A stretch of 64,000 nucleotides of DNA from Candidatus Yonathbacteria bacterium RIFCSPHIGHO2_02_FULL_44_14 (GCA_001823535.1 MHUT01000012.1:355-64354), one strand, 5' to 3'. Shown: positions 6,581 through 33,552, numbered from the stretch's first letter. Numbers and translations: made by a program. Notes: a model not told the origin generated them from the sequence alone.

Positions 6581-6643
6581 GTGAACTTTCGAATCAGCTG
6601 ATTCTGAACTAGCAAGTTCACGTCTTGGACGCAAGCTTGGACC
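6581..6643 (+). repeat. copy A of a ~60-nt conserved palindromic upstream element, 82 nt before ftsZ
   Basis: GTGAACTTTCGAATCAGCTGATTCTGAACTAGCAAGTTCACGTCTTGGACGCAAGCTTGGACC. Contains the perfect 12-bp palindrome AATCAGCTGATT inside a 20-bp near-palindrome, and is about 80% identical to the reverse complement of copies B and C. Confidence 0.6.
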
Positions 6644-19334: not shown

Positions 19335-19365
19335 AAAAATACCGTAACATTGTTACGGTATTTTT
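19335..19365. terminator. intrinsic terminator after hsp20
   Basis: AAAAATACCGTAAC-att-GTTACGGTATTTTT. Confidence 0.65.
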
Positions 19366-19367
19366 AA

Positions 19368-19455
19368 TGGTGCCGAGGACCAGGGTTGGTCACGGATTAC
19401 TAAGTCTTCTCGTTTGCTTCGCAAACTGTGAGGACTAAGTATCCTCTACCCCGGC
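19368..19455 (-). pseudogene. degenerate tRNA-Phe-like fragment (duplicated tRNA 3' end, att-scar candidate)
   Basis: The 21-nt TGGTGCCGAGGACCAGGGTTG at 19368-19388 is identical to the 3' end of tRNA-Phe (19586-19606). The upstream sequence can pair as a GCCGGGG/CCUCGGC acceptor stem, but the T-loop lacks GTTC and no canonical anticodon arm is present. Confidence 0.4.
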
Positions 19456-19542
19456 TCGCAATTTTTGAAAAAGTCATGAAGAAAACTTTTTCAAAAATAT
19501 TGCTGCGCCTTTCAACCCTTTTATAATGCTCCGCACATTTAT

Positions 19543-19596
19543 CCTCGGCACCATAAGAAAAACCACCCGCAGGTGGTTTTTCTTATGGTGCCGAGG
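19543..19596. terminator. 25-bp-arm palindrome overlapping the tRNA-Phe 3' end (terminator-like)
   Basis: CCTCGGCACCATAAGAAAAACCACC-cgca-GGTGGTTTTTCTTATGGTGCCGAGG; the right arm includes the tRNA-Phe acceptor 3' strand plus CCA. Confidence 0.6.
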
Positions 19597-19661
19597 ACCA
19601 GGGTTGAACTGGTGACCCCTCGCTCTTCAGGCGAATGCTCTACCAACTGAGCTACCTCGGC
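19586..19661 (-). tRNA. tRNA-Phe (anticodon GAA), CCA encoded
   Basis: Reverse complement GCCGAGGTAGCTCAGTTGGTAGAGCATTCGCCTGAAGAGCGAGGGGTCACCAGTTCAACCCTGGTCCTCGGCACCA. Confidence 0.9.
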
Positions 19662-19684: not shown

Positions 19685-19750
19685 TTTATGGCCGAGCCTG
19701 CGTCCAAGACGTGAATTTGTTAATTCAGAATCTGCTGATTCGGCTACATC
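19685..19750 (-). repeat. copy B of the ~60-nt conserved palindromic upstream element, 24 nt upstream of tRNA-Phe
   Basis: TTATGGCCGAGCCTGCGTCCAAGACGTGAATTTGTTAATTCAGAATCTGCTGATTCGGCTAC is 63/66 identical to copy C. Confidence 0.6.
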
Positions 19751-21321: not shown

Positions 21322-21791
21322 AGATTATCTTTTCCTCTTGTTAGTTAATATTTTTCCGACTTTATGATTAAAAAATTTTCTTCCCCCAAAATTAAAACAT
21401 GGTTCGAGCCGATGTTTTTCTACGGGTTCTTTTGCGGTTTCGAGCGGTGCGGCTCTGCCACCATTCCGAATTTTCGCGGAGGGAATTTTCCGAAAAAATG
21501 CGTTCAGACTAATTCAAGGATACTGCGCAAGAAGGAAAAGTCAAAGAGTTTTGGTTCGTGGTGCCCCATGTCGGTCTCGGAATTGCGGGTGTCAGACCCC
21601 ACAAGGGTTCCTTGGGTACTTTTAGCGTATCAAACTGAACCCGCTCAGTCTGGTCTCAATAGACACGATAGACACTATAAAAAGAGCTTGGGTTGTGTCT
21701 CGTGAGACATACACCATTTGCTCGCGTCGGAACCTTAAATTTGTAAATGATACAAATGAGACACTAAGACGGCATTTTAAGGCTGTCTCAT

Positions 21792-22286
21792 TTACAGTAG
21801 TTTACCATTTTTATACCACTCCATCGTAATGATCTGACCTGCTTTTTTAGATACTCCAAAGACTATGTATAATCCAAGCCTATAACCATAGCCATCCAGC
21901 CTTTGAGTCAATCCTTCTATTTTCCATATGTCGTCTCGAGCTGGGCTATTATTGGTTTCAATTTCTATGGCAACCAGATTATTTTGATCAGTATTTCTTT
22001 CGTGAACAGCTATATCCAACTCTATTAATTTACCTTTTAAGTATTTAGAGGCGCCTAGATGTTTATTATAAAAAGGATCACTGTGGATGTCACCAGTGTT
22101 AAATTTTTTGGATATTTGTGCTGCAAAACAAGACATAAAATTTCTTTCGACTCTGCCATTCTTCAAGATACCAATCTCGGCTTCGATTGTAGAATTTGCA
22201 GCACTTTCAATTTTGGACATCAGGTCTGCTTCTTCTTTAGTAATTTGTTGTTGACTGTTTGGCATATTAAAATGTGTGCACGACAA
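21792..22286 (-). CDS. hypothetical protein (164 aa) downstream of mrr
   Basis: Clean ORF with a hairpin terminator at 21745-21785; no family recognised. Confidence 0.5.
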   Translation of the reverse strand: MSCTHFNMPNSQQQITKEEADLMSKIESAANSTIEAEIGILKNGRVERNFMSCFAAQISKKFNTGDIHSDPFYNKHLGASKYLKGKLIELDIAVHERNTDQNNLVAIEIETNNSPARDDIWKIEGLTQRLDGYGYRLGLYIVFGVSKKAGQIITMEWYKNGKLL

Positions 22287-22356
22287 ACTATGATAGCCAC
22301 GACTTGTCCAACACTCTTATCAAATAAGAACACTTGCAATATTGCGTGTGACTTTA

Positions 22357-23259
22357 TTATTCTTCAAAAAAATAATCAGAGTCTACTTTTTTAATCTGGT
22401 ATGTTGCTAGAATTGATACACCAATATCATGCTCAATCATCAATCTAACCAGTTCTGAACCATCAACAAGAATAACCCTGCAATCTAATTTCTTTACGTA
22501 ATCAAGAGCCTCTTGTGTGAAATTAGATGTTGTAATAAAGATACCTTTCTTTGCAAACTTTCCAGTTAATGCACCTACAAATCCTTGTACATCCGGGCGA
22601 CCAACAGTTCCTTTCCATCGCTTTGCTTGAAGATAAATCAAATCAAGACCCAGTTTGTCTTCTTTGATAATTCCATCTATCCCTTCATCCCCAGTTTTTC
22701 CTAGTGCCTGCCCAGCATCCTTTCTAGAACCACCATATCCCATACCTATAAGTAGATCAACGACCACCTGCTCAAAAAAGGCAGGTGAACCATTCATCAG
22801 ATTACTTAATAAATCAGCCTCTAGGTCCTTTAGAATTCTCTGATAGCTTGATTCTAAAGATTCTTCCGGAGTATTTTCTGAAACATCTTCTTTTTCTTGC
22901 GTCACTTGATCCTCGCTACCATATTGAAACTCGCGAAACGAGGAAAACTGATCCAAAAAATGCGTATCAATAACTTCTGGTTTTTGACTTAGAGCTTTCA
23001 ATCCTTGCTTTGTGATTTTTACGTAACTCTTTTTAGGAGCATCTACTAAACCAGCCTTTTTGAGATATGTTTTTGCCCATCCAGTTCTGTTACTAAAAAT
23101 ACTCATTCTTCCGCTAGGGGTGCGCTGGACAAGTTCGTCTTCGGTTAATTTAAATTCAGCAGAAAGTGCCCCTTCAATTTCTTTAAGAGTATGCTCTTTT
23201 TCATCGGACAATTGTCTTAGGAAAGGCAAAATAATATATCTGAATTTTGGTATAGCCAT
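22357..23259 (-). CDS. mrr: Mrr-family type IV (modification-dependent) restriction endonuclease
   Basis: N-terminal winged-helix (Mrr_N-like) and a C-terminal Mrr_cat core: GGSRKDAGQALGKTGDEGIDGIIKEDKLGLDLIYLQAKRW nearly matches E. coli Mrr. Confidence 0.85.
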   Translation of the reverse strand: MAIPKFRYIILPFLRQLSDEKEHTLKEIEGALSAEFKLTEDELVQRTPSGRMSIFSNRTGWAKTYLKKAGLVDAPKKSYVKITKQGLKALSQKPEVIDTHFLDQFSSFREFQYGSEDQVTQEKEDVSENTPEESLESSYQRILKDLEADLLSNLMNGSPAFFEQVVVDLLIGMGYGGSRKDAGQALGKTGDEGIDGIIKEDKLGLDLIYLQAKRWKGTVGRPDVQGFVGALTGKFAKKGIFITTSNFTQEALDYVKKLDCRVILVDGSELVRLMIEHDIGVSILATYQIKKVDSDYFFEE

Positions 23260-23360
23260 AAATATTTTGTACTCAAATTATAGCATTTTAGCTAACCTAT
23301 TCAAAAAAAGAGAGTTTTTAAACCTTTTAATTTGGTGGTGGTATCTACCACTAATTACAA

Positions 23361-25247
23361 CTATTTTAGCTGGTAGTAGAAGTAGGTTCCGTTAGGAAAT
23401 TTAATGTTAGGAACCCATAACGGTCGATCTTCCCACCCCTTATTGGCTTCACCCTTTAGCCTATAGAGTGTGAGCACAAGCCTGTCGTTGAAGCGTGCGC
23501 CCATCTCACGGTCAGTAGGAGAGAGTAAGGTACCTGTTCCTTTGCTGATACTTCTCTCTGTTCTGACAATAAGATGACAGTCGTACTTCGCACCTTTCTT
23601 GAGAGTCTCAACACAGTCTGCGAATGAGTGCTGATTCCAAAGATCACTTTTTTCTACACTAACAAGACGCAGTATCTTTTCAGCTTCGTCTAGTGAAATA
23701 TCCTTTTCCATGTCCTTACTACCAAGCTCCGCGTCCAAAGCAGGGAGGCTGGTGTGCGTTGGATTAAGTGGAAAATAATTAACCCCACCCGCGATGACCA
23801 TCAGGTCTTCTTTGAGAACAACGCTCATGCGTGTTGGGCGGGTTCCTTTTGGAGTAAGGAGGCTGACAGCCTGAGGTCCTTTTTCTAGAAGAGTACTGAA
23901 CAGAGCATTGTTAGCATCATTCAGTTCTCGAAAAAGTTTTATGAGCGGTCGCGGACTGAAAAGGCGACAGAGCCCAGGATCTCGGTCATATCCGAATATT
24001 CTGGCGTGTTGCCACGAAGTATCTGCTTGGGGAGTTTTCGCGCTTCTGCAATAATAGACGATTTGCAGACCGGGAAATGTAACACCTCGCCCGAGTGTAT
24101 TACCACCGATCACAATATTGAGACCTTTATCATACACGGATCCTTCCGGTGTTTTTGAGTTCAGAACAGTAATATTTACGCTCGGCATATCGGCACGAAG
24201 GAATCGCATAATTTCATCAAAGGGTTTAATATCTGTTTTTGTTTTTGAAAGCTCCTCCCATGCATCACGTAGATCAAATTCGAGGGTGGAAGAATTTGCA
24301 ATAAGATCGGTTTTCACTCCTTCCAGGAATTTTTCCACCTTTGTCCTTACAGTTGAATGTTCACTTATTTTTACTCCGGGATGAATCAGCATGCTACACG
24401 CCGACCTCTCTTTGGTCAAAAAGAGATCGGATGCCACTACCAAAAAATGAAGGACTGCTTTACGAAGGCCGATTGGCACATGCTCTGCTTTTAGTAAATC
24501 GTCGCGCTCATTATCCTCTGTTTCAATAAGATTTTTTGAGTCCTCGCCATAAAAGAAATCACCGCCGAGATACCCCTTATTTGGTGGCAGATAAAAAGAA
24601 TACTGGGGCTTCCATCCCGATAACTCTATCTGAAGAACAAGAGACTGTGGGGTTGCTGTAACATGGAGGTAAATTGACGATGGAGACTGCTTGTTTATTT
24701 TCTCAAGCAACATATTAATCGTACTCTGCTCATTTTGATTTACTTTTGTGTTGAGACTTGAGGCGTCTGCTTCATCATCGAGAAGAAAAAGTGGTTCATC
24801 CTTATAGATAGGATTTGTAGCAATATTGTTTGCCCACGTCTTCAAAACGCCGGAGTTTTTCTTAAGTACGAGTATCGTCGGCATAGAAAGACCGCGCGTA
24901 AGGAAGGCTTCCTCGTCTGATTCCCCAAGTACATTGAAGCCCGCCATGAATCCTCCGAGAAAATTCTTTGCACGCTCCAGTGTTTGTTTGTGTAGAATAA
25001 CATTATCAGTGGTTACCAATATAAAAAACTTGAATCCTCTGTCAGCAGCTGTAGCCGCGATCGCAAGCATCTGTCCTGTCTTCCCACTCTGCACGTGTCC
25101 ATAAAGCAGGCCAGAAACGTGACTATTGTGGTCAAAAGTATCTATATGCTTCTTTGCAAATTCCTCTGCACTTTTAGTTAGCGCCTCAACAAGCGCTGGG
25201 TTAGTAGCGCCTACTCGTCTTAAATAATTTTCTAAAAATTTGCTCAT
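23361..25247 (-). CDS. P-loop NTPase, Z1-domain-like restriction-system component (628 aa)
   Basis: Walker A LLYGHVQSGKTGQM near the N-terminus; the size and its position between a C5-MTase/REase and mrr resemble Z1-domain proteins of R-M loci. Family assignment by eye only. Confidence 0.65.
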   Translation of the reverse strand: MSKFLENYLRRVGATNPALVEALTKSAEEFAKKHIDTFDHNSHVSGLLYGHVQSGKTGQMLAIAATAADRGFKFFILVTTDNVILHKQTLERAKNFLGGFMAGFNVLGESDEEAFLTRGLSMPTILVLKKNSGVLKTWANNIATNPIYKDEPLFLLDDEADASSLNTKVNQNEQSTINMLLEKINKQSPSSIYLHVTATPQSLVLQIELSGWKPQYSFYLPPNKGYLGGDFFYGEDSKNLIETEDNERDDLLKAEHVPIGLRKAVLHFLVVASDLFLTKERSACSMLIHPGVKISEHSTVRTKVEKFLEGVKTDLIANSSTLEFDLRDAWEELSKTKTDIKPFDEIMRFLRADMPSVNITVLNSKTPEGSVYDKGLNIVIGGNTLGRGVTFPGLQIVYYCRSAKTPQADTSWQHARIFGYDRDPGLCRLFSPRPLIKLFRELNDANNALFSTLLEKGPQAVSLLTPKGTRPTRMSVVLKEDLMVIAGGVNYFPLNPTHTSLPALDAELGSKDMEKDISLDEAEKILRLVSVEKSDLWNQHSFADCVETLKKGAKYDCHLIVRTERSISKGTGTLLSPTDREMGARFNDRLVLTLYRLKGEANKGWEDRPLWVPNIKFPNGTYFYYQLK

Positions 25248-25250
25248 ATT

Positions 25251-26303
25251 TTATCTTGAAAAATCTAGCAGCCATACTTCTGGATCGGTGGTCTCCTTAA
25301 GTGAAATTGTATTCCGTCCATATTTTTGAAACACTTCTGGTGTCACAGGCTGTCCGACCTTGAGGCACCCAGCTCTTTCGAGTCTTCCTTTAATCCACCG
25401 GCCTAGAGTTTTCAAGTCGCCTTCTGATCTGAAATTCTTTCCATAGTCTCCCTGAATTTTGCAGTTGAACCGCCACCCGTCGTCAGTGTACACACGGATT
25501 ACTGAGTCTCGTTTTGGATAACCGTCTGCCATAGTTATCTCTATTGGAACAATGAGCTCTACTTCATACCAGTGACGAGGGCGTATTGCTCCTGTACTTT
25601 TCGCAAGCCTTCCTTTCCCAAAATAAGTATTAAGATTACTCTTGGCTTCCGCCTTGAGAGGAAGATCGAATACGCGGTCTGTAAGCGTGCTTTCTATTTT
25701 ACGGTATTCTTCTCCTTCTAGTTTGTCTACATCAATTCTGTCTTTCAGCAAGTCAGGCATTTCAATAAACGTCCCTGGTTTTGGCCAATCGAGAATGTCC
25801 GTTGATGCTTTTACGACGAGTTCGTTATGTAGACCATCAAGCTTCATGAGCACACTCTCCTCGGTAAAAAGAGCATCCACCTCCCATTGTCGATTATCGA
25901 GGATATTACCAAGATTCGATGACCCCATCATTGCGGAAACCGGTGCAGGCTTTCCGTTTTTCCAGAACACATAGGTTTTCCCGTGGAATTTAAAAGCCGT
26001 GCATACGCGCACACTGCCTATACCTTTCTCCTTAAGAAATTCTGCAAGGTCTATAGCAGCTTCATACTGCGCGCGTGTGAATCCCTCTCTCCCGTGCATG
26101 CCGATTACAAGACTGCACATTTTGTCTTTGTTCTCTTCATTATAAAATAGGAGAATCGATTTTAGCTCCAACAGAGAGTCTTCTGTAACATAGCCAGTAG
26201 CTATTTTTATGCTGTCAGAATTAACGATGCCTGATTCAAAAGCTTCGCTGAATGAAGAGTTATCGTACTCACAAGGTTTGATTTTTGAATAAAGTAATTC
26301 CAT
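25251..26303 (-). CDS. PLD-superfamily restriction endonuclease (NgoFVII/BfiI-like) with a C-terminal B3-like DNA-binding domain
   Basis: FKFHGKTYVF...GSSNLG (HxK ... GSxN PLD nuclease motif). C-terminal RVYTDDGWRFNCKIQGDYGKNFRSEGDLKTLGRWIKG resembles the B3/EcoRII-N-like domain of R.BfiI; size is 350 aa. Confidence 0.7.
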   Translation of the reverse strand: MELLYSKIKPCEYDNSSFSEAFESGIVNSDSIKIATGYVTEDSLLELKSILLFYNEENKDKMCSLVIGMHGREGFTRAQYEAAIDLAEFLKEKGIGSVRVCTAFKFHGKTYVFWKNGKPAPVSAMMGSSNLGNILDNRQWEVDALFTEESVLMKLDGLHNELVVKASTDILDWPKPGTFIEMPDLLKDRIDVDKLEGEEYRKIESTLTDRVFDLPLKAEAKSNLNTYFGKGRLAKSTGAIRPRHWYEVELIVPIEITMADGYPKRDSVIRVYTDDGWRFNCKIQGDYGKNFRSEGDLKTLGRWIKGRLERAGCLKVGQPVTPEVFQKYGRNTISLKETTDPEVWLLDFSR

Positions 26304-26314
26304 ACGAACTTATT

Positions 26315-27379
26315 TTACATATCAGATACTTCATCTAAAAACTTCCTAATTGCTTTTGCAATCGGCTTTATTCCAGCAGGTGGCACAGAATTACCAATCT
26401 GCCTTCTAACCTCAGTTATCGATCCAACGAACTCAAAATCATCTGGATAGCCAAATAGACGGGCACGTTCTCGATTAGTGAGAGGCCGGTTTTCTTTCCA
26501 ATGGTACCCCCATGTACCCCCACCACCACCAGCAATAATAGTAGTCGAGGGCTTATCTGGATGCAAGCGACGGTATACATGGGAGATCATCCCCTTCACA
26601 TAGTGCGGTGAGGTTTTAGGGATATCGGTGAAGTTTCCACCTGGCGGAATCAGTCTCAATTTTGCGACCGTGCTTGGATTAATGTTTTGGTGCTCGTTAT
26701 TGAAAAATACTTTTTCAGCATCCTTCAGAGCTTCTTTTGCCGTAACATACTTATCTGGTGTATGAGTGGGAAATGGTAGCTTAAATTCTTTATTAAGATC
26801 GTTACGGACACCAATGATTAACACACGCCGGCGAAGCTGGGGAGCGCCGTAGTCTGCAAAGTTTATAGGATAAACATTCACTTTATAGCCTGCCTTTCCA
26901 AAATCGTCCACTATCTGAGTGACTGCGTTGCCTTTGTTTGCGCTTAAAAGTCCTCTAACATTTTCGGCAACAAACATTTTCGGCTGCTTCGCCAAAACAA
27001 CACGAACGAATTGCCTATACAGGTTCCCACGATCAGTTTTAAGACCCATACGCTTCCAGATCATGCTGAAATCCTGACATGGAAACCCGCCGAGAACAAT
27101 GTCACATTCTGGAATATCTTCATTTTTAACAGCGGTTATACTCCCTTCCATTATATGGTCGCCAAAATTTTTCTTGAAAGTTTCGCAGGCCCAGTGGTTC
27201 ACATCATTTGCCCACAAGATATCAAATCCTGCATCTTTGAAACCGAGGTCCATTCCACCGGACCCAGAAAAAAGAGAGGCCACGCGGTGTACTTTTTTCT
27301 CTATAACGGACTTGCCCGAGCGGGCAACCTGTGGCTTCGCTGAACGGTTATTTTGTTTTTGTGGAGTTGTTGTTCTCAT
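26315..27379 (-). CDS. DNA (cytosine-5)-methyltransferase
   Basis: Motif I LFSGSGGMDLGF, motif IV GGFPCQDFS, motif VI ENV and a C-terminal target-recognition/RxR region. Confidence 0.9.
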   Translation of the reverse strand: MRTTTPQKQNNRSAKPQVARSGKSVIEKKVHRVASLFSGSGGMDLGFKDAGFDILWANDVNHWACETFKKNFGDHIMEGSITAVKNEDIPECDIVLGGFPCQDFSMIWKRMGLKTDRGNLYRQFVRVVLAKQPKMFVAENVRGLLSANKGNAVTQIVDDFGKAGYKVNVYPINFADYGAPQLRRRVLIIGVRNDLNKEFKLPFPTHTPDKYVTAKEALKDAEKVFFNNEHQNINPSTVAKLRLIPPGGNFTDIPKTSPHYVKGMISHVYRRLHPDKPSTTIIAGGGGGTWGYHWKENRPLTNRERARLFGYPDDFEFVGSITEVRRQIGNSVPPAGIKPIAKAIRKFLDEVSDM

Positions 27380-27496
27380 GTGGTCATTATACCTTAATGC
27401 GTTAAAAAAAGCCGCTACTTTTTGCTGTAAAAATTATTGAGCCACGATTTGGGAAAAATTGTCCACGGTCACATCCTCCAAACTGGATATTTCACT

Positions 27497-28045
27497 TTAA
27501 AGTTTCCATTCAATGAACGCGAAGTTCTCTGTCGTGAGGCCATAATCAAGAGACTTCTCGAGCCACTGTATTTGGGTCTCCCGAATATTGTCTTTCTTTT
27601 GACGCTTGAGTTCAATGAACAACATCATATCTCCTTTCCACACGAACACATCCCAACAACCACCAGACCGACCAGTCTTGGCACGGATGGAGTCAATTAA
27701 TTCTTTTTGTTTTTGTGGAATCTCTATGGGGTCAACAACATCAGGAAGACCGACTCTGTAATTTCTTCTGTACGAATCAACCCATACGCCATTCCATCCA
27801 TGTGATTGAAGCAAACGCAAAACGGCGAGCTCTGCAAATACAGGCTCGCCGTTCCAATCGACAACTGGTTTGTTGTTATATGTGTTAGGTATCGATGCTC
27901 CTTTCCATGGAGTGAGTGTAAGAAAATATTTCTGCATGGAAATTTGCTCACCCGAAGGAAGCGAGAATATTTCGCCATCAACTTTGTATGGTTGTAAAAA
28001 CTCAAGATTACCTTCTTGAGAAGTATGAGTATGGTCGTCGTCCAT
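27497..28045 (-). CDS. VRR-NUC domain nuclease (PD-(D/E)xK)
   Basis: GGCWDVFVWKGDMMLFIELKRQKKDNIRETQIQWLEK (D...ExK plus the QxxW tail typical of VRR-NUC). Start set at the MDDDHTH ATG (28045) because the track's upstream extension lies in an inverted-repeat region. Confidence 0.65.
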   Translation of the reverse strand: MDDDHTHTSQEGNLEFLQPYKVDGEIFSLPSGEQISMQKYFLTLTPWKGASIPNTYNNKPVVDWNGEPVFAELAVLRLLQSHGWNGVWVDSYRRNYRVGLPDVVDPIEIPQKQKELIDSIRAKTGRSGGCWDVFVWKGDMMLFIELKRQKKDNIRETQIQWLEKSLDYGLTTENFAFIEWKL

Positions 28046-28786
28046 ATTTGTTCGTCGCGATTTTGTTATACCTAATTTGGGGTACAAAAAGCCCGCTACC
28101 AGGAAGGCACCTTGCGGTAACCTCTACCAGAGTTTCCCCTGGTAACGCGACGAACGCCCTGATAACGGGTTCTTTATGTTCGTCGCGATTTGCAGCCATA
28201 CCCTAAAGATTTTTGAAACCCTTTAGGGGTTAGGCCGACTTCTATGAAGTTGTAAGTGCATTGTAGCAGAAAATCTGCTACTCCTCCATTTAAGCTTAGT
28301 TCTGAAGATTTGTGTAGCTCAGTTGTCTACACCTGTGGATAACTCAATTTACACTGTCCCGCGAAAAACCGTGATGGAATTTGAGTATTTTTCAGCTCAT
28401 CTCTATCTATTTACACTACTGACATCCTTGACAGAAAAAATCAAAAAAGTGGCTAAAAATCTATTGCAATTTTTATAAATCAATGAAACAATATGTATGT
28501 TAGCTCATTTCATATTTATAAATACCTGTCGCTTACGCGACAAACGCTCCTATCTTCAGAGGTGAATGCCAAGGCAGACTGAAGCGAGGGTCGTTGATAG
28601 GATTTACATATAACAACTGATCGGTACTGGGGTCACAAGCCAGAAAGGTGTCCGATGAAGAACTGTAAATCGAGTAAATAACAAACGGAAGTTTGTCGTT
28701 TATTTGATTTACAGTTTTTTGTATATCAATAAACGTCAGACATCCATTTGAGATGTGCTGACGTTTATTCGTTATTAACAAAAAAT
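28046..28786. promoter_or_regulatory. 740-bp noncoding region: candidate origin / operator region of the island
   Basis: Three copies of GTTCGTCGCG in alternating orientation (28052, 28146, 28178). AT-rich stretch with two TTTATAAAT motifs (28468-28528). Multiple nested inverted repeats (28660-28716; 28728-28769, ending 18 nt before the ParB-MTase ATG). Confidence 0.45.
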
Positions 28787-30109
28787 ATGGATATTAAAAT
28801 CACGTATGTGCCTATTGGTTCTTTGAATCCAAGCACATACAATCCACGCAAGTGGAACGAGGCGCAAACTAATGCACTCAAAGAATCGATTACAAAGTTT
28901 GGAATAGTTGACCCCGTCATTTGCAACTCTGCATCTGAACGAATGAACACGGTGATTGGCGGACACTTTCGATTGAAGGTTGCTAAAGACCTCGGACATA
29001 CTGAGATGCCAGTGGTCTATGTAAATATTCCTGATATCGAGAAAGAAAAAGAACTAAATGTGCGATTGAATAAGAACCTCGGTGAGTTTGACTTCGAGCT
29101 TCTGAAAGATTTCGGTGAAGCGTTCCTCGGCGAAATGGGTTTTAGCACTGAAGAGCTTGATAATATATTTGCGATTGACCCAACCCCAGAAGTATTCGAC
29201 TTGGAAAAGGAGCTGGAGAAGCTCAACATTCACGAAATTAAAGTAGAGAAGGGTGACATATACGAAATTGATGGATCACGGCTCATGTGTGGTGACAGCA
29301 CTATTGAATCCGACATGCTGAAACTGATGGAAGGAGCACAGGTGGATATGGTATGCACTGATCCCCCCTATATTTTGGACTACCTCAAAGGGAAAACAAA
29401 ACAAAAGGACGGAGTGACTGAAGGGTTCGGACTGAAGAAGAATCGTAAGTATCTTGAGACAGATGTGCTGCCATACAACTTCACAGAACTCTGGATGGCA
29501 AGCGTGGCAAAGGTGCAGAAGCCAGACTTCTCTATCATGATATTTGAGCATCCAAAGAATCTCCGCACTATCTGGAATGAATTGGAGAAACACTGGAAAT
29601 ACCGCAACACCATTACATGGCATGTTCCCAATCGTGTGCAGGGATTTGCGGCTAAGTACAAATTCTTTAACAAGAGTGATATCGCTCTGGTTGGCACTGA
29701 TGGAGAGATAGCTCTTAATCTTGAGACAGAGAGTGACGAGCTTTTTCAGAATGAATACGAGAATGCAATCTTTGCAACTTCTGGGAAACCTCATTTCGAG
29801 TCATATGAGAAAGGCAAGAAGATTTGTCCAACTGATTTCATTGACCATATTGCGGCCGACGAAAAATCTTCGGGGCAAGGAATTATCTTTGGCACAAAGC
29901 CGTTAGAATTATTGATCCCCTACATCAAGGTACTGACCAAACGTGGTGACTTGGTGCTTGAGCCATTCGGTGGATCAGGAAGTACACTCATTGCTTCGCT
30001 GAAGCTTGGGCGTAATTGTCGCATCATGGAAAAGTCCCCCGTGTATACGGAAGTGATAAAGGGTCGTTGGGAGAAGCACACGGGAAAGAAGGCGAAGAAG
30101 ATTAACTAA
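28787..30109 (+). CDS. ParB/Srx-like nuclease domain fused to a beta-class N6-adenine/N4-cytosine DNA methyltransferase
   Basis: N-terminal ParBc-like region (YVPIGSLNPSTYNPRKW...GGHFR). Motif IV DPPY (MVCTDPPYIL) precedes motif I (LEPFGGSGSTLIAS), which is the beta-class order. ATG at 28787 is chosen. Confidence 0.85.
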   Translation: MDIKITYVPIGSLNPSTYNPRKWNEAQTNALKESITKFGIVDPVICNSASERMNTVIGGHFRLKVAKDLGHTEMPVVYVNIPDIEKEKELNVRLNKNLGEFDFELLKDFGEAFLGEMGFSTEELDNIFAIDPTPEVFDLEKELEKLNIHEIKVEKGDIYEIDGSRLMCGDSTIESDMLKLMEGAQVDMVCTDPPYILDYLKGKTKQKDGVTEGFGLKKNRKYLETDVLPYNFTELWMASVAKVQKPDFSIMIFEHPKNLRTIWNELEKHWKYRNTITWHVPNRVQGFAAKYKFFNKSDIALVGTDGEIALNLETESDELFQNEYENAIFATSGKPHFESYEKGKKICPTDFIDHIAADEKSSGQGIIFGTKPLELLIPYIKVLTKRGDLVLEPFGGSGSTLIASLKLGRNCRIMEKSPVYTEVIKGRWEKHTGKKAKKIN

Positions 30110-30117
30110 CCACTTCT

Positions 30118-30804
30118 ATGCCTTCTCCTAAAACAAAGAACAAAACGGAGAAGCGATTGGAAACATTAGCGGTAAAGACAAGGGCGCAGAAGCAGGCGTT
30201 CCTCGAACAGCTCCCAAAGTATCCGATAGTACAGGTCGCCTGTGAGAAATCAGGTGTCGGTCGTTCGACGTACTATGCGTGGCGAAAGGATGATAAAGAA
30301 TTCGCGAAGGAAGCCGACAAAGCCATTAGTAGTGGTGAGCTCTTCATCAACGATATGGCAGAGTCGCGCCTCATTCAGAATATTCAGAACGGTAACAACA
30401 CCGCCATTATCTTTTGGCTGAAGAATCATCACGGTGGATACAATGACCGTATCGTGCATGAGCATGAACACTCACTTGAGCTTGTGGATGAGGATCGCAA
30501 GGCTATCGTAAAAGCCCTGATGAACATCGGTCTTGGAAATGTTCTCGTGAATAACGGCATAGACCCAGAGCAGTGGCACGAAAAACAGCGACTTGAAAAA
30601 GAGGAGCACATGAGGCGGGTAAATGGGGTCATTGGGTCTGCACCAGAAAAGGCGGATACTATTTTTAAAATTCCTTCTCGTCCCAGTCCACCAGCAGTTG
30701 AAATGCCAAACACTCCACCAAAAAAGCGACCAGTGAAAAAAGGGATAAACCTTAAAGAGTACTTCAGTGATGTAGCGGTTAAGAAGTGCCTTGGGAGTAA
30801 ATAG
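30118..30804 (+). CDS. HTH protein resembling a phage terminase small subunit
   Basis: N-terminal QVACEKSGVGRSTYYAWRKDDKEF HTH typical of TerS/transposase-like helix-turn-helix, followed by a basic proline-rich tail. Confidence 0.55.
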   Translation: MPSPKTKNKTEKRLETLAVKTRAQKQAFLEQLPKYPIVQVACEKSGVGRSTYYAWRKDDKEFAKEADKAISSGELFINDMAESRLIQNIQNGNNTAIIFWLKNHHGGYNDRIVHEHEHSLELVDEDRKAIVKALMNIGLGNVLVNNGIDPEQWHEKQRLEKEEHMRRVNGVIGSAPEKADTIFKIPSRPSPPAVEMPNTPPKKRPVKKGINLKEYFSDVAVKKCLGSK

Positions 30805-30823
30805 TTGTCTACTTCTTGTCTAC

Positions 30824-30851
30824 AACCCCGCCTAGGATACCTAGCGGGGTT
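30824..30851 (+). terminator. hairpin after the HTH gene
   Basis: AACCCCGCCTAGG-ata-CCTAGCGGGGTT. Confidence 0.5.
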
Positions 30852-30899
30852 GTGTCATTCCTTGTGTATATGAGCAAAATTGAAATGCCAGTTGGGGCT

Positions 30900-32189
30900 A
30901 TGGCGAGGGAGATTCAAGCCCCCGTAAGGGTTAAATATTGCCTGTACGCGAGAAAAAGTACAGAAAGTGAAGAACAGCAGGTCTTATCGATTGATAGCCA
31001 AATTAAGGAGATGCTCCAAATGGCAGAAAGGGACCATTTGGAGATTGTGGAAATCAAGAAAGAATCGCACTCGGCAAAGGAGGCTGGGCAACGGCCTGTC
31101 TTTAACGAGATTGTCGAGGAGATTAAAAGCGGTAAATTCAACGGCATCCTCACTTGGGCACCAGATCGCATCTCAAGAAACGCGGGAGACCTAGGGAGAA
31201 TTGTTGACTTGATGGATTCAGGCAGACTTCACGAGATACGCACCTATGGGCAGAAATTTAGCAACAACCCGAACGAGAAATTCTTACTGATGATCCTCGG
31301 ATCACAGGCGAAACTCGAGAACGACAACAAGGTGGTCAATGTAAAGCGTGGGTTACGTGCGCGATGTGAGATGGGTCTGTGGCCGTGTACCGCCCCTACT
31401 GGATACCTAAACAGTACTAATACCGAGAGAAGCTGTCATGTAGAAGTTGATATCGAGAGGGCTCCTATAATAAAGAAAATGTTTGAGAAAATAGCATACG
31501 AAGGATATAGTGGTCGCAAAGTACACTCATGGTTAAAAGACGAGATGAAATTCAAAACAAGAAATGGTAAACCTCTCAACGTAGGTAACATTTCTTTAAT
31601 ACTGAGAAATACTTTCTACTATGGAACCTTCGAATACCCGAAGAAGGGCGGGCAATGGTATCAAGGAAAACATACGCCAATAATAACCAAGGAGCTTTTC
31701 GACAAAGTGCAGGAGAGCCTCGTGGGCTACTCCACAAACAACGCAAGCAAAGAATTCGCCTTCACAAAACTGCTAACCTGCGGACTGTGCGGATCAGGGA
31801 TTACTGCCGATGAGAAATTCAAGAAACAACAAAATGGAACAGTACATCGGTACGTCTACTATGGATGTTGCAGATTTAGAGACAAAAACTGCAAATCAGG
31901 GTACATGCGAGAAGAGGATTTAATAGATCAACTTGCAGAACTCATGGATGAAATTCACCTTAATGAGATAGGGATGAAGGAAAAAATAAAAGAAGAAATC
32001 GAACGACACAAGAAATTCGAATCAGGATTACTTGGTATAAAGAGTACAACGGTAAAAATTGCCGACATCGACATACGAAACTACGCAAAATATATTTTGA
32101 GAGATGGAAAGACCTCAGAAAAACGAGAATTACTAACCTGCCTGAGGAGTAAGGTAACGATGGCGGAGAAACGGATTAAAATTAGTTAA
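30900..32189 (+). CDS. large serine recombinase (integrase/resolvase family)
   Basis: Catalytic YCLYARKSTESEEQ with the Ser nucleophile, a recombinase domain and a C-terminal zinc ribbon CGLCGS...YYGCCRFRDKNC plus coiled coil. ATG at 30900 is chosen; the track's TTG start at 30816 overlaps the upstream hairpin. Confidence 0.85.
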   Translation: MAREIQAPVRVKYCLYARKSTESEEQQVLSIDSQIKEMLQMAERDHLEIVEIKKESHSAKEAGQRPVFNEIVEEIKSGKFNGILTWAPDRISRNAGDLGRIVDLMDSGRLHEIRTYGQKFSNNPNEKFLLMILGSQAKLENDNKVVNVKRGLRARCEMGLWPCTAPTGYLNSTNTERSCHVEVDIERAPIIKKMFEKIAYEGYSGRKVHSWLKDEMKFKTRNGKPLNVGNISLILRNTFYYGTFEYPKKGGQWYQGKHTPIITKELFDKVQESLVGYSTNNASKEFAFTKLLTCGLCGSGITADEKFKKQQNGTVHRYVYYGCCRFRDKNCKSGYMREEDLIDQLAELMDEIHLNEIGMKEKIKEEIERHKKFESGLLGIKSTTVKIADIDIRNYAKYILRDGKTSEKRELLTCLRSKVTMAEKRIKIS

Positions 32190-33283
32190 CTATTAGACCT
32201 ACTTCTGTATGACTCCAAAGATCCAGCGACCTCCTGCTTTTTCAGCGACTTAATTTTTAGAATAATCTCGTTTGAATATCTAGTTAAATCGCCCTCATTA
32301 GATCTCCAACAATACCTAGGGTCTTCTTTGAGTTTAAACTTAAAACATATAGCTTGAAAAGTGTAGGGTGTAAATTTCTCACCATTTAAGGATCCAATTT
32401 TTTGAACTATGTTTTTTTGACGCCATGGGTGTGTAATATTTGGATCTTGTATCTTTGTTATAATTAATGGGCCTCCTGTCGCACCACGTACACCATCAAC
32501 CCCTGCAACGAAATCAGCTTTTTCGATTTTTTTAACTGATTGTACGGAAACATTAAATATTGTCATTAGCCTAGCTGTATCATCTCCAGCCTTTTCAACC
32601 TCCTCCAAGCTTGCAACTAATGTATTCATGAACTGCCTGACTGCTGATCCTTTTGCGGTTGTATTTTTCGATCCTTGAGAAATATACTTTACAGGGTCGA
32701 TTGGTGGTTCAATCCCCAAAGGGATGAGTTGCCACGAAATATCGTGGGCTAAATTCTTTCCAAATATTTCTAGAAGTAAATCTTTAAAGTTAATTATATT
32801 TGTTTGTGCAAGTGAGTAAATTAAAATGCCAAAATTTTTTTCATTGTAAAAATGTACTGCGTTATCTCTGTATGTACTCAGAAGGCTGAGATTGGCACGA
32901 AGTGGTAAAGTTGGTATTTTTTTAGGAAAAAATTTTTCTGCTTTGGTAAAGGCATCTGTCATAGACATTGTTCTGTATGGTTCATTTCTTTTTTTTCGAT
33001 AGTATATCGAACCCCTATTTTTTGAAATAATAGCTTTAAGCAACAACTCCCATGAGTTCAGAAGTAGAATAACAAAAGTCTCCTCTCTATAGAGAAAGCT
33101 TGGTTTATTATATATTTCTATTGACGCAAGCAATGCACTTTTTGCATTCCGAAATAAGTGTCGCGAGGAGCCTTGGTAGTTCATTATTACAATAATACAC
33201 TTATTTACACACGAAAAAAGCACCCAATTATTCCTCTCGGTAAAACCAGAGAGGGCATTGAAAATGCATAGTTTAAATACCAT
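32186..33283 (-). CDS. hypothetical protein, possibly abortive-infection / defence-associated (365 aa)
   Basis: Helical N-terminal domain with RHLFRNAKSALLASIEIYNKP; family not firmly recognised. Convergent with the recombinase, overlapping by 4 bp. Confidence 0.55.
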   Translation of the reverse strand: MVFKLCIFNALSGFTERNNWVLFSCVNKCIIVIMNYQGSSRHLFRNAKSALLASIEIYNKPSFLYREETFVILLLNSWELLLKAIISKNRGSIYYRKKRNEPYRTMSMTDAFTKAEKFFPKKIPTLPLRANLSLLSTYRDNAVHFYNEKNFGILIYSLAQTNIINFKDLLLEIFGKNLAHDISWQLIPLGIEPPIDPVKYISQGSKNTTAKGSAVRQFMNTLVASLEEVEKAGDDTARLMTIFNVSVQSVKKIEKADFVAGVDGVRGATGGPLIITKIQDPNITHPWRQKNIVQKIGSLNGEKFTPYTFQAICFKFKLKEDPRYCWRSNEGDLTRYSNEIILKIKSLKKQEVAGSLESYRSRSNS

Positions 33284-33362
33284 AAGTTCGATGTATTAGC
33301 GGGGTCGTGTTTTTAGCTGTCAAAAAACCTTTATTTTGTAGACCTCGGTCGGTCTCACATGC

Positions 33363-33437
33363 TGGTGCCCTCGGCAAGAATCGAACTTACATCTAATCCT
33401 TAGGACGGATCTGTTCTATCCATTGAACTACGAGGGC
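33363..33437 (-). tRNA. tRNA-Arg (anticodon CCT), CCA encoded
   Basis: Reverse complement GCCCTCGTAGTTCAATGGATAGAACAGATCCGTCCTAAGGATTAGATGTAAGTTCGATTCTTGCCGAGGGCACCA. Confidence 0.85.
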
Positions 33438-33490: not shown

Positions 33491-33552
33491 TTATGGCCGA
33501 GCCTGCGTCCAAGACGTGAATTTGTTAATTCAGGATCTGCTGATTCGACTAC
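33491..33552 (-). repeat. copy C of the ~60-nt conserved palindromic upstream element, 54 nt upstream of tRNA-Arg
   Basis: TTATGGCCGAGCCTGCGTCCAAGACGTGAATTTGTTAATTCAGGATCTGCTGATTCGACTAC. Confidence 0.6.

What the first reader, a model, noticed from the sequence alone, without database searches (positions are those of the whole stretch)
28787..32189. ParB-nuclease::DNA-methyltransferase fusion, TerS-like HTH protein and large serine recombinase module
A ParBc domain is fused N-terminally to a beta-class (DPPY before FGGSG) amino-MTase. It is followed by a terminase-small-subunit-like HTH protein and a zinc-ribbon large serine recombinase.

This triad is typical of phage, phage-plasmid or satellite genomes rather than cellular chromosomes. 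A nested-IR operator lies 18 nt upstream of the first gene. The recombinase is the likely integration enzyme for the island.
Basis: partly seen in the sequence, partly recalled or inferred. Interest (0 to 1): 0.55.

Follow-up and report, generated by a model that had tools for sequence, protein, structure and literature searches.

The report
tRNA-targeting serine-recombinase defence island
The three genes are real and form the backbone of an ~11.8-kb mobile island inserted at the end of a tRNA-Arg gene in a candidate-phyla-radiation bacterium; it belongs to a widespread element family, for which I found no published description, that ferries anti-phage defence genes.

Summary
Observation confirmed. 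28787-30109 encodes an intact ParB_N + beta-class N6/N4 methyltransferase fusion. 30118-30804 encodes a small-terminase-like HTH protein. 30870-32189 (ATG; the TTG at 30816 is probably too early) encodes a large serine recombinase (LSR).

Interpretation partly supported. The LSR is very probably the integrase, but the island is not 19.6-33.4 kb. Comparison with about 90 related loci, almost all Patescibacteria, defines two conserved ends. The right end is an 18-nt motif (33341-33358) 4 nt beyond tRNA-Arg(CCT). The left end is a ~135-nt element (21550-21684). Both ends carry the 8-nt tRNA terminus GGGCACCA as a direct repeat (21559-21566 and 33363-33370), and this core covaries with the tRNA in other loci. 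Related tRNAs without an LSR lack the motif. LSR clades track tRNA identity.

The ParB-MTase/TerS-like pair is an optional block. In some relatives it is followed by a large terminase, which is absent here. No capsid or portal genes were found in any locus examined.

Cargo here is Mrr, a Z1/NgoFVII-like/Dcm R-M set and PDC-S19. The minus-strand cargo array is headed by LOOT RNA (RF03000), which recurs in 30 of 96 sources.

Best reading: an integrative, possibly satellite-like, defence island. Excision and transfer are not shown.

The parts
21550..21684 (+). Left element (LE): conserved non-coding end of the island. It starts with TGGTGCCC (21559-21566), the reverse complement of the tRNA terminus GGGCACCA, followed by GTCTC/GAGAC repeats and a tandem AGACAC x2 plus a TATAAA-like box.
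   Evidence: nhmmer finds it in about 20 loci. In all but the two minus-strand hits (L036, L028) it is upstream of and co-oriented with the recombinase, 0.27-9.9 kb away. No RNA consensus structure, so it is a DNA-level site. Its terminus shares 5-13 nt with the junction tRNA 3' end and covaries with it. The ORF listing ORF 21364..21705 is spurious.
21792..22286 (-). Cargo ORF, 164 aa, unknown function (weak PD-Lambda-3_A hit)
22357..23259 (-). Mrr-type Type IV methyl-directed restriction enzyme (cargo)
   Evidence: Pfam Mrr_N + Mrr_cat; PADLOC mREase_IV 3.6e-83
23361..25247 (-). Z1-domain/ResIII helicase of a Type II R-M set (cargo)
   Evidence: Pfam Z1 1e-31; PADLOC Helicase_II 1e-178
25251..26303 (-). 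NgoFVII-like PLD restriction endonuclease (cargo)
   Evidence: Pfam RE_NgoFVII + RE_NgoFVII_C; PADLOC REase_II 5e-94
26315..27379 (-). C5-cytosine DNA methyltransferase (cargo, partner of the REase)
   Evidence: Pfam DNA_methylase 4e-80; PADLOC MTase_II 5e-118
27497..28087 (-). 196-aa ORF with a weak VRR-NUC-like hit; first gene after LOOT
   Evidence: Pfam VRR_NUC 0.008, below cutoff; 90% identical homologue in L029
28100..28240 (-). LOOT RNA (Rfam RF03000), at the head of the minus-strand cargo array
   Evidence: Rfam 70 bits vs gathering score 46.4. Own model finds 30 copies in 96 sources, all antisense to the recombinase. 92.8% of cells paired, covariation score 0.757 vs 0.224 shuffled. 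Downstream ORFs are heterogeneous.
28658..28770 (.). Two inverted repeats upstream of the ParB-MTase gene (28658-28719 and the nested hairpin 28729-28770)
   Evidence: hairpins at the same position but with unrelated sequences in relatives
28787..30109 (+). ParB_N :: beta-class N6A/N4C DNA methyltransferase fusion (440 aa)
30118..30804 (+). Small-terminase-like HTH protein (228 aa) with a C-terminal extension. Its homologues in relatives directly precede a large terminase gene, which is absent here.
   Evidence: PHROG terS families. Synteny ParB-MTase/TerS-like/TerL in L103, L104, L067, L077. AF2 model pLDDT 79; the best PDB fold hits include small terminases but none is significant.
30805..30869 (+). 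Conserved recombinase leader: TTGTCTAC x2 (30805-30823), palindrome AACCCCGCCTAGG/CCTAGCGGGGTT (30824-30851), box GTGTCAT (30852-30858)
   Evidence: GCGTCAT box (<=1 mismatch) in 71 of 88 loci, CT(A/G)GACTC conserved. No family-wide hairpin by RNAalifold.
30870..32189 (+). Large serine recombinase (439 aa from ATG 30870); presumed integrase of the island
32186..33283 (-). DUF3644 + EC042_2821 REase-like protein = PADLOC candidate defence system PDC-S19. It occupies a second cargo slot between the recombinase stop and the right-end motif.
   Evidence: Pfam; PADLOC PDC-S19 1e-127. The slot holds unrelated DNA in the relatives: window homology is absent from L029 11378-11995 (about 0.6 kb, contents not annotated) and from 1.9 kb of L006.
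33341..33358 (-). Right-end motif GTGAGACCGACCGAGGTC (family consensus GTGAGACCGACCGAGAGG); conserved element arm next to the tRNA
   Evidence: 38 hits in 35 sources vs about 1 expected by my estimate. All are on the strand opposite the recombinase and downstream of it, and 36 of 38 lie 3-6 nt after a tRNA 3' end. Absent after tRNA genes with the identical 31-nt 3' end in L106 and L107.
33363..33437 (-). tRNA-Arg(CCT), the integration target. Its 3' terminus GGGCACCA (33363-33370) is the right copy of the shared core.

Best explanation
The three genes are the plus-strand backbone operon of an ~11.8-kb integrative genomic island (about 21559-33370). The island is inserted at the 3' end of tRNA-Arg(CCT) in a Parcubacteria-type (Nomurabacteria/Yonathbacteria-like) genome.

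Shown by comparison: the large serine recombinase belongs to a Patescibacteria-wide family. Members of this family always sit with their 3' end facing a tRNA gene. Within the subfamily at >=66% identity, a conserved 18-nt arm lies 3-6 nt beyond the tRNA, and a conserved ~135-nt left element lies upstream. The two ends share a short direct repeat equal to the tRNA terminus.

Inferred: the recombinase recombined an attP (right arm + core + left element) with an attB at the tRNA terminus, leaving the tRNA intact.

The ParB-methyltransferase plus small-terminase-like pair is a phage-derived accessory block. The methyltransferase would pre-protect element DNA from restriction in a new host. The TerS-like protein would bind element DNA for packaging by a helper's terminase, in the way satellites do, or act as a regulator or directionality factor. 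Relatives keep their own TerL.

The remaining genes are defence cargo in two slots, and the larger slot is transcribed behind LOOT RNA. Excision, transfer route and all biochemical activities are inferred, not shown.
For: - Domains and catalytic motifs are intact.
- The closest solved structure is the SPbeta serine integrase.
- The right-end motif occurs 38 times in 35 sources against about 1 expected, always with the same orientation and position.
- The left element occurs in about 20 loci.
- The shared core covaries with the tRNA: window GGGCACCA, L013 13 nt, L088 CGAGGGGACA, L041 GGAGCACC.
- Unoccupied tRNA genes with the identical 31-nt 3' end lack the motif and the recombinase in L107 and L106.
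- Tandem sites carry partial tRNA 3' fragments in L013 and L015.
- Recombinase clades track tRNA identity.
- One MAG has three copies at Arg, Gly and Leu tRNAs.
- The recombinase is as conserved as LepA or more so across classes (93/93, 75/60, 63/48%), which fits horizontal spread.
- DNA homology to L006 and L029 covers exactly the three genes and then resumes at the motif/tRNA.
- ParB-MTase/TerS-like/TerL/recombinase synteny is seen in L103, L067 and L077.
- Cargo is defence-related in every locus annotated except L026, where it is a Liv-type ABC transporter.
Against: - No excised or circular attP junction was found.
- No empty site was found in the same species, only in relatives.
- The two arms next to the core are direct rather than inverted copies of GAGACC, which is not the classic dyad-symmetric serine-integrase site, so the crossover point is not fixed.
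- L010 and L029 carry an inverted tRNA 3' fragment left of the left element that the simple model does not explain.
- The window has no TerL, no replication gene, no recognisable repressor and no identified directionality factor, so it may be immobile or dependent on unknown helpers.
- The TerS assignment rests on profile hits and synteny; fold matches are not significant.
Confidence: 0.7

Rival explanations
1. Decayed prophage or satellite remnant: the ParB-MTase/TerS-like/recombinase genes are leftovers of a phage late-operon start plus integrase, now fixed in the chromosome and no longer mobile.
For: TerL is present in relatives but missing here. There are no replication, repressor or virion genes in the window. 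No circular junction was found.
Against: All three ORFs are intact with catalytic motifs. Both element ends and the recombinase leader are conserved. The same three-gene block is 84-85% identical at the DNA level in two other genomes with different flanks. 16 of 23 genome loci with the HTH gene also lack TerL, so the TerL-less form is a recurrent type rather than a one-off decay product.
Confidence: 0.17
2. The island is the 13.8-kb segment between the 62-nt direct repeats at 19686-19747 and 33491-33552 (roughly the first reader's 19.6/33.4 kb), and these repeats are attL/attR.
For: The two copies are 97% identical over 62 nt and flank the region.
Against: A third, inverted copy lies at about 6589-6633, upstream of an unrelated gene. 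All three copies sit upstream of a transcription unit in the same relative orientation, with a compensatory change in one hairpin. The right copy lies beyond the tRNA-Arg 5' end, outside the conserved element end. No relative has such repeats. The left element and motif give a boundary pair that recurs in about 20 loci.
Confidence: 0.05
3. A fixed, integron-like capture platform: a domesticated recombinase resident next to a tRNA inserts and swaps defence cassettes at defined slots rather than moving the whole island.
For: Cargo varies at two fixed positions, after LOOT and between the recombinase stop and the right motif, while the backbone stays constant. The recombinase is unusually conserved.
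Against: No cassette-flanking recombination sites were found. The same family sits at many different tRNAs, several per genome. Both outer ends share a core with the tRNA terminus, as expected for whole-element integration.
Confidence: 0.06
4. The recombinase is a local invertase/resolvase acting on an invertible segment.
For: Inverted tRNA 3' fragments flank the element in L010 and L029. The [recombinase...tRNA-Arg] block is inverted relative to the flanking genes in L045 compared with the window.
Against: It has the full Resolvase + Recombinase + zinc-ribbon architecture and is closest to the SPbeta integrase. It scores 3e-62 against the PHROG integrase family versus 2e-18 for the invertase family. 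The window has no inverted repeats bracketing a segment around it. The L045 difference is explained if the tRNA-Arg gene simply has the opposite orientation in that genome.
Confidence: 0.02

Closest known systems
Tycheposons (tRNA-targeting cargo and PICI-like elements of Prochlorococcus; bioRxiv 10.1101/2020.12.28.424599)
   Same: Both integrate at the 3' side of specific tRNA genes. Integrase clades track the tRNA. Tandem elements are separated by partial tRNAs. Both have cargo-carrying and terS-bearing forms, and both build variable islands in streamlined genomes.
   Different: The tycheposon hallmark is a tyrosine recombinase (474 of 501) plus replication genes. Here the integrase is a large serine recombinase, no primase/helicase module was seen, the host is Patescibacteria, and the backbone carries ParB-MTase/TerS(/TerL) and LOOT RNA.
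Phage satellites that use serine recombinases (Vibrio PLEs; serine-recombinase VEIMEs; PMC9638900, PMC9618062)
   Same: About 5-15 kb integrative elements with a serine recombinase, small-terminase homologues in some, no full virion module, and a role in anti-phage defence.
   Different: PLEs have replication and capsid-remodelling functions and a helper-encoded directionality factor, and they integrate in repeats, not tRNAs. None of these was found or tested here. No helper phage is known, and encapsidation is unproven.
Phage large serine integrases (SPbeta SprA, Bxb1, phiC31, TP901-1)
   Same: Same three-domain architecture and catalytic motifs. The best solved relative is SprA/YokA at E 2e-13. 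The short common core (5-13 nt) is comparable to those I recall for Bxb1 (8 bp) and TP901-1 (5 bp) (own knowledge).
   Different: Only <=28% identical to any integrase in deposited phages. The target is the extreme 3' end of tRNA genes, which to my knowledge is unusual for serine integrases. The arms flanking the core are not obviously dyad-symmetric.
ParB-methyltransferase fusions next to terS in phage genomes (PHROG 498)
   Same: Same fusion and same position immediately upstream of the small terminase gene.
   Different: Here, and in 16 of 23 related genome loci, no TerL follows, and the block sits in a defence island rather than a phage.
LOOT RNA motif (Rfam RF03000)
   Same: Full-length match above the gathering score, with strong covariation.
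   Different: Rfam lists it only as a candidate sRNA. The link to serine-recombinase islands, and its position heading variable cargo genes, appears in nothing I could read.

Membership tests
Large serine recombinase (integrase type) | N-terminal resolvase catalytic domain with the R-x-S nucleophile motif and the D-R-x-x-R pocket | tested here: met
   PF00239 1e-18; YARKS at residue 26 and DRISR at residue 99 of the 439-aa protein
Large serine recombinase (integrase type) | C-terminal Recombinase domain and zinc-ribbon domain | tested here: met
   PF07508 4e-17 and PF13408 1e-07, both above cutoff; Cys at 304, 307, 333/334 and 341
Large serine recombinase (integrase type) | Short attP/attB pair sharing only a small core, giving attL/attR at the element ends | tested here: inconclusive
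   A shared, covarying 5-13 nt core and conserved arms were found. The dyad symmetry and crossover dinucleotide are not resolved, and no attP or same-species attB was observed.
Large serine recombinase (integrase type) | Recombination directionality factor for excision | not testable with these tools
   No candidate was identified beyond the adjacent HTH protein, and RDFs have no common signature.
Beta-class N6A/N4C DNA methyltransferase (PF01555) | Motif IV (DPPY) N-terminal to motif I (FxGxG), with full-length domain | tested here: met
   DPPY at 192, FGGSG at 394; profile positions 1-220/221 covered; relatives CcrM, MboIIA, RsrI
ParB/Srx N-terminal domain | ParB_N fold with the GxxR box | tested here: met
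   PF02195 34.2 bits vs cutoff 26.3; GGHFR at residue 58; matches ParB/Noc/Spo0J structures. Nuclease or CTPase activity cannot be tested here.
Phage small terminase (TerS) | N-terminal HTH DNA-binding domain of the TerS type | tested here: met
   phrog_309 4e-12, phrog_4044 1e-08, phrog_24579 1e-04. Pfam HTH_Tnp_1_2 is just below cutoff here but above it in the L009 homologue.
Phage small terminase (TerS) | Gene immediately upstream of a TerL gene | tested here: not met
   In the window the next gene is the recombinase, and there is no TerL in the island. The feature is met in relatives L103, L104, L067, L077, L026, L031 and L070.
Phage small terminase (TerS) | Oligomeric ring via a central helical or beta-barrel domain | tested here: inconclusive
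   Monomer AF2 model, pLDDT 79.4, all helical. The best PDB hits (2ao9, Sf6 gp1, NV1 TerS) are not significant (E >= 0.37).
Phage satellite (PICI/PLE-like) | Integrase plus packaging-redirection gene, size about 5-15 kb, no virion module | tested here: met
   11.8 kb; LSR plus TerS-like gene; no structural genes in the window or in about 15 annotated relatives
Phage satellite (PICI/PLE-like) | Own replication module (primase/rep plus ori) and master repressor | tested here: not met
   None was detected in the window. An S24 repressor-like gene was seen only in L086.
Phage satellite (PICI/PLE-like) | Helper-phage-dependent induction and encapsidation | not testable with these tools
   Only 4 and 8 relatives occur in IMG/VR viral contigs, and those carry defence genes, not virion genes.
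Tycheposon | tRNA-specific integration, with integrase clades matching tRNAs and partial tRNAs between tandem copies | tested here: met
Tycheposon | Deep-branching tyrosine recombinase hallmark gene | tested here: not met
   The only recombinase in the island is a serine recombinase.
LOOT RNA (RF03000) | Score above the Rfam gathering threshold over the full model, with the structure supported by covariation | tested here: met
   70 bits vs 46.4, model positions 1-121/121; 36 of 40 pairs with changes on both sides across 30 copies

The most novel reading that the evidence does not exclude
Patescibacteria harbour a phylum-wide family of serine-recombinase elements, functional analogues of tycheposons and PICIs. 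These elements insert at the last bases of tRNA genes and carry interchangeable defence cassettes expressed behind a dedicated structured RNA (LOOT). They spread as satellites by bringing their own small (and sometimes large) terminase to hijack capsids of still-unknown CPR phages. This would be the first satellite system, and the first defined integration system, in this uncultivated radiation. The recombinases would be a ready-made set of tRNA-specific integrases for engineering CPR bacteria.
Probability: 0.3. Interest if true: 0.8.

Novelty: new variant of a known kind. Interest (0 to 1): 0.62.

Why it matters
- **Gene flow in CPR bacteria.** Patescibacteria make up a large share of bacterial diversity, have tiny genomes and are almost uncultured, so how they exchange genes and arm themselves against phages is poorly known. 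This locus leads to a coherent, recurrent element family with definable ends, a tRNA-specific serine integrase, interchangeable defence cargo and a linked structured RNA.
- **Testable predictions.** It gives concrete attP/attB sequences for a set of integrases that could serve as genetic tools for CPR bacteria.
- **Context for LOOT.** It gives LOOT RNA, an orphan Rfam motif, a genomic context: it heads the cargo genes of mobile islands.
- **Terminase genes without capsid genes.** It raises the question of whether these terminase genes mark phage satellites in this radiation.
- **Annotation.** For genome annotation, island-boundary calls based on the nearest repeats or tRNAs would be off by about 2 kb here.

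Tried and rejected
- **62-nt direct repeats as att sites.** Rejected after finding a third copy and a consistent promoter-proximal placement.
- **Boundary repeats in six relatives.** None found.
- **Second motif or displaced tRNA-Arg fragment in the window.** None found.
- **Partial tRNA copies in all loci.** Only inverted fragments in L010 and L029, which remain unexplained.
- **Left element as a structured RNA.** No consensus structure.
- **Recombinase leader as a family-wide hairpin.** Not supported by RNAalifold on a MAFFT alignment.
- **attP junction.** Not found in the fetched loci or in IMG/VR.
- **Exact-protein look-up of the recombinase.** Returned only short contigs of the same genome.
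- **Promoter/terminator scan of 28050-28850.** No hits.
- **HTH protein against PDB by sequence.** Only spurious RecA hits.
- **HTH protein by fold.** Nothing significant.
- **Literature.** Searches for CPR serine-recombinase elements and for LOOT gave no description.
- **'orf113' (21364-21705).** Rejected as a gene because the conserved part is the non-coding left element.

Full report
**1. Observation**

Three co-directional ORFs occupy 28748/28787-30109, 30118-30804 and 30816-32189.

- **First ORF.** It has a ParB_N domain (34.2 bits, cutoff 26.3) and a full-length N6_N4_Mtase domain (77.4 bits, profile positions 1-220/221). GGHFR is at residue 58, DPPY at 192 and FGGSG at 394, which is the beta-class motif order. 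Its solved relatives are CcrM, MboIIA and RsrI, plus ParB/Noc.
- **Second ORF.** It hits three PHROG small-terminase families (best 4e-12). Pfam HTH_Tnp_1_2 falls just below its cutoff.
- **Third ORF.** It has Resolvase, Recombinase and Zn_ribbon_recom domains and the catalytic motifs YARKS and DRISR. Its closest solved structure is the SPbeta serine integrase. Because most homologues are 429-442 aa, the true start is probably ATG 30870.
- **Nested hairpin.** The hairpin at 28729-28770 is real (z = -5.8) and ends 16 nt before the ATG.

**2. Host and setting**

The flanks are housekeeping genes: an aminoacyl-tRNA synthetase, PrsW, HSP20, tRNA-Phe, then tRNA-Arg, a glutaredoxin-like gene, tRNA-Gly, DivIC and LepA. 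LepA is 93% identical to that of a Candidatus Nomurabacteria MAG, and the recombinase is 94% identical to one in a Candidatus Yonathbacteria MAG. The window is therefore a Parcubacteria-type CPR chromosome.

**3. The recombinase family**

- More than 8,000 homologues exist. Apart from the query's own cluster, the top 120 are 73-93% identical.
- Eighty genome loci are almost all Patescibacteria.
- The recombinase is as conserved as LepA or more so across classes: 93/93, 75/60 and 63/48%.
- Several MAGs hold two or three copies.

**4. Ends of the element**

*Right end.* DNA homology to the two closest relatives covers exactly the three genes (about 28791/28804 to 32183/32192). It resumes at 33344, which is 19 nt beyond the tRNA-Arg 3' end. 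Aligning these junctions revealed a conserved motif next to the tRNA even where the tRNA differs. Across 94 sources, GTGAGACCGACCGAGAGG (<=3 mismatches) occurs 38 times in 35 sources, against about one expected by my estimate. Every hit is on the strand opposite the recombinase and downstream of it, 75 nt to 7 kb from its stop, and 36 of 38 lie 3-6 nt after a tRNA 3' end. The tRNAs are five Arg isoacceptors plus Lys, Gly, Leu and Glu. More distant recombinases (61-65% identity) lack this motif, but many of them still face a tRNA (Ser, Gln, Trp, Asp) where enough downstream sequence is available.

*Left end.* A second conserved element of about 135 nt (window 21550-21684) occurs in about 20 loci. 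Except in the two minus-strand hits (L036, L028), it is upstream of and co-oriented with the recombinase, 0.27-9.9 kb away. It has no RNA consensus structure. It contains GTCTC/GAGAC repeats and a terminal tandem repeat that changes in concert within each element.

*Shared core.* The left element begins with the reverse complement of the tRNA terminus. The shared direct core is GGGCACCA in the window (21559-21566 and 33363-33370). It is 13 nt in L013, CGAGGGGACA in L088, GGAGCACC in L041 and GGGGCAC in L045, so it covaries with unusual tRNA ends.

*Empty sites and tandem sites.* tRNA genes with the identical 31-nt 3' end in related organisms are followed by unrelated DNA, with no motif or recombinase (L107, L106). 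By my reading of the anticodon loops these are an Arg-CCT in L107 and an Arg-TCT in L106. Extra motif copies in L013 and L015 are preceded only by a tRNA 3' fragment, as expected for successive integrations.

*Target specificity.* Recombinase clades track tRNA identity.

*Conclusion.* The window's element is about 21559-33370 (11.8 kb). L029 and L010 have 11.9- and 12.3-kb versions, and minimal versions of 2-3 kb contain little more than the left element, the recombinase and the motif.

**5. The 62-nt repeats**

The repeats at 19686-19747 and 33491-33552 have a third, inverted copy at about 6589-6633. Each copy lies upstream of a transcription unit in the same relative orientation. They are not the att sites.

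**6. The ParB-MTase and HTH pair**

- Among the 80 genome loci, ParB-MTase was found in 20 and the HTH gene in 23, and every ParB-MTase has an adjacent HTH gene.
- Among the 42 loci with at least 8 kb of upstream sequence, 17-18 have the pair.
- The gap between the HTH gene and the recombinase ranges from 69 nt to 9.5 kb. It is filled with cargo: GIY-YIG, KAP NTPase, Type ISP, Type I and Type III R-M, Dam, GmrSD, an OLD-like ATPase, a reverse transcriptase, and in L026 a Liv-type ABC transporter.
- In L103 and L104 (viral contigs) and in L067, L077, L026, L031, L070 and others, the HTH gene is followed directly by a TerL gene (phrog_38, about 1e-80). L103, L067 and L077 read ParB-MTase, TerS-like, TerL, recombinase.
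- The window and 16 of the 23 HTH-bearing genome loci lack TerL.
- No portal or capsid gene was found in any annotated locus.
- Deposited phages have no HTH homologue and only <=28%-identical integrases.
- The AF2 model of the HTH protein (pLDDT 79) is all-helical. Its best PDB fold hits include small terminases, but none is significant.

**7. Cargo and LOOT**

The minus-strand array from 28087 down to 21792 encodes a weak VRR-NUC-like protein, Dcm, an NgoFVII-like REase, a Z1 helicase, Mrr and an unknown ORF. The slot between the recombinase stop and the right motif holds the PDC-S19 protein.

LOOT RNA (RF03000) lies at 28100-28240, 12 nt upstream of the first cargo ORF. A model built from five copies finds 30 copies in 96 sources, all antisense to the recombinase. 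Many lie 100-300 nt upstream of the recombinase or of the ParB-MTase gene. Covariation is strong. The ORFs that follow LOOT fall into 18 unrelated clusters. LOOT therefore marks the head of the variable cargo region. Whether it is a leader or a separate sRNA is not known.

**8. Recombinase leader**

The stretch 30805-30869 contains TTGTCTAC twice, a near-perfect palindrome and a GTGTCAT box. A GCGTCAT box (<=1 mismatch) is present in 71 of 88 loci, and CT(A/G)GACTC is conserved. Its function is unknown. The tandem TAGACA half-sites resemble those at the end of the left element, which hints at a shared binding protein. This is inference only.

**9. Mechanism**

*Shown.* The architecture, the conserved ends, the shared core that covaries with the tRNA, the empty relatives, and the match between recombinase clades and tRNA targets.

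*Inferred.* The recombinase integrated a circular element at the tRNA terminus. The methyltransferase protects incoming DNA. The TerS-like protein serves packaging by a helper, or regulation or directionality. The cargo provides defence.

*Gaps.* No attP circle was found. The arms are not dyad-symmetric. Inverted tRNA fragments in L010 and L029 are unexplained. No replication gene or repressor was found in the window.

**10. Comparison with known systems**

The closest analogue in logic is the tycheposon, but that family uses tyrosine recombinases. PLEs and some marine VEIMEs are satellites with serine recombinases. I found no description of serine-recombinase, tRNA-end-targeting islands in Patescibacteria, nor of the LOOT association.

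**11. Verdict**

The locus belongs to a widespread integrative element family that appears to be undescribed, which I class as a new variant of a known kind.

Noticed in passing
window 19686-19747, 33491-33552 and about 6589-6633 (inverted): A dispersed 45-62-nt motif with three small hairpins. Each copy lies 25-90 nt upstream of a transcription unit (tRNA-Phe, tRNA-Arg, ORF 6725+), and the third copy has a compensatory change in the middle hairpin. It is probably a promoter-proximal regulatory element of this genome.
   Followed up: partly
window 19335-19661: tRNA-Phe carries its own scar. A perfect 26-nt palindrome (19542-19597) includes the tRNA 3' end. About 200 nt away is a direct partial copy of the tRNA 3' end (19367-19388), followed by a terminator hairpin (19335-19365). 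This looks like the remnant of another integration at this tRNA.
   Followed up: partly
window 28100-28240 (-): LOOT RNA (RF03000), an orphan Rfam motif, is a recurrent component of this element family. It occurs in 30 of 96 sources and always lies antisense to the recombinase, directly upstream of variable cargo genes.
   Followed up: yes
window 30805-30869: Conserved recombinase leader: a tandem 8-mer, a palindrome and a GCGTCAT-type box. The box is present in 71 of 88 related loci. Function unknown.
   Followed up: partly
L010 137-156 and L029 23-46: An inverted copy of the junction tRNA's T-loop-to-acceptor segment (20 nt, perfect in L010) plus a hairpin lies just left of the left element. 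Simple integration does not explain it. It may reflect palindromic tRNA terminators or past inversions.
   Followed up: partly
L008 19084-20967: 147-nt, 97% complementary inverted repeats flank a small recombinase-like ORF. This is a separate invertible segment near another tRNA-Arg.
   Followed up: no
L026 3599-9550: One family member carries a complete Liv-type branched-chain amino-acid ABC transporter plus a TrmB regulator as cargo, so the elements can move metabolic genes as well as defence genes.
   Followed up: no
L039 6578-6653: ARAGORN calls a tRNA with anticodon TTA ('tRNA-Stop') 6 nt after a truncated recombinase match. It may be a suppressor tRNA or an artefact.
   Followed up: no
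L011, L031, L040, L064: A few family members sit in MAGs labelled Bacteroidales, Gammaproteobacteria, Thermoplasmata or Methanoregula. This is probably binning contamination, but transfer outside CPR is not excluded.
   Followed up: no
window 21364-21705: The mechanical ORF here is spurious. Its conserved part is the non-coding left element of the island.
   Followed up: yes
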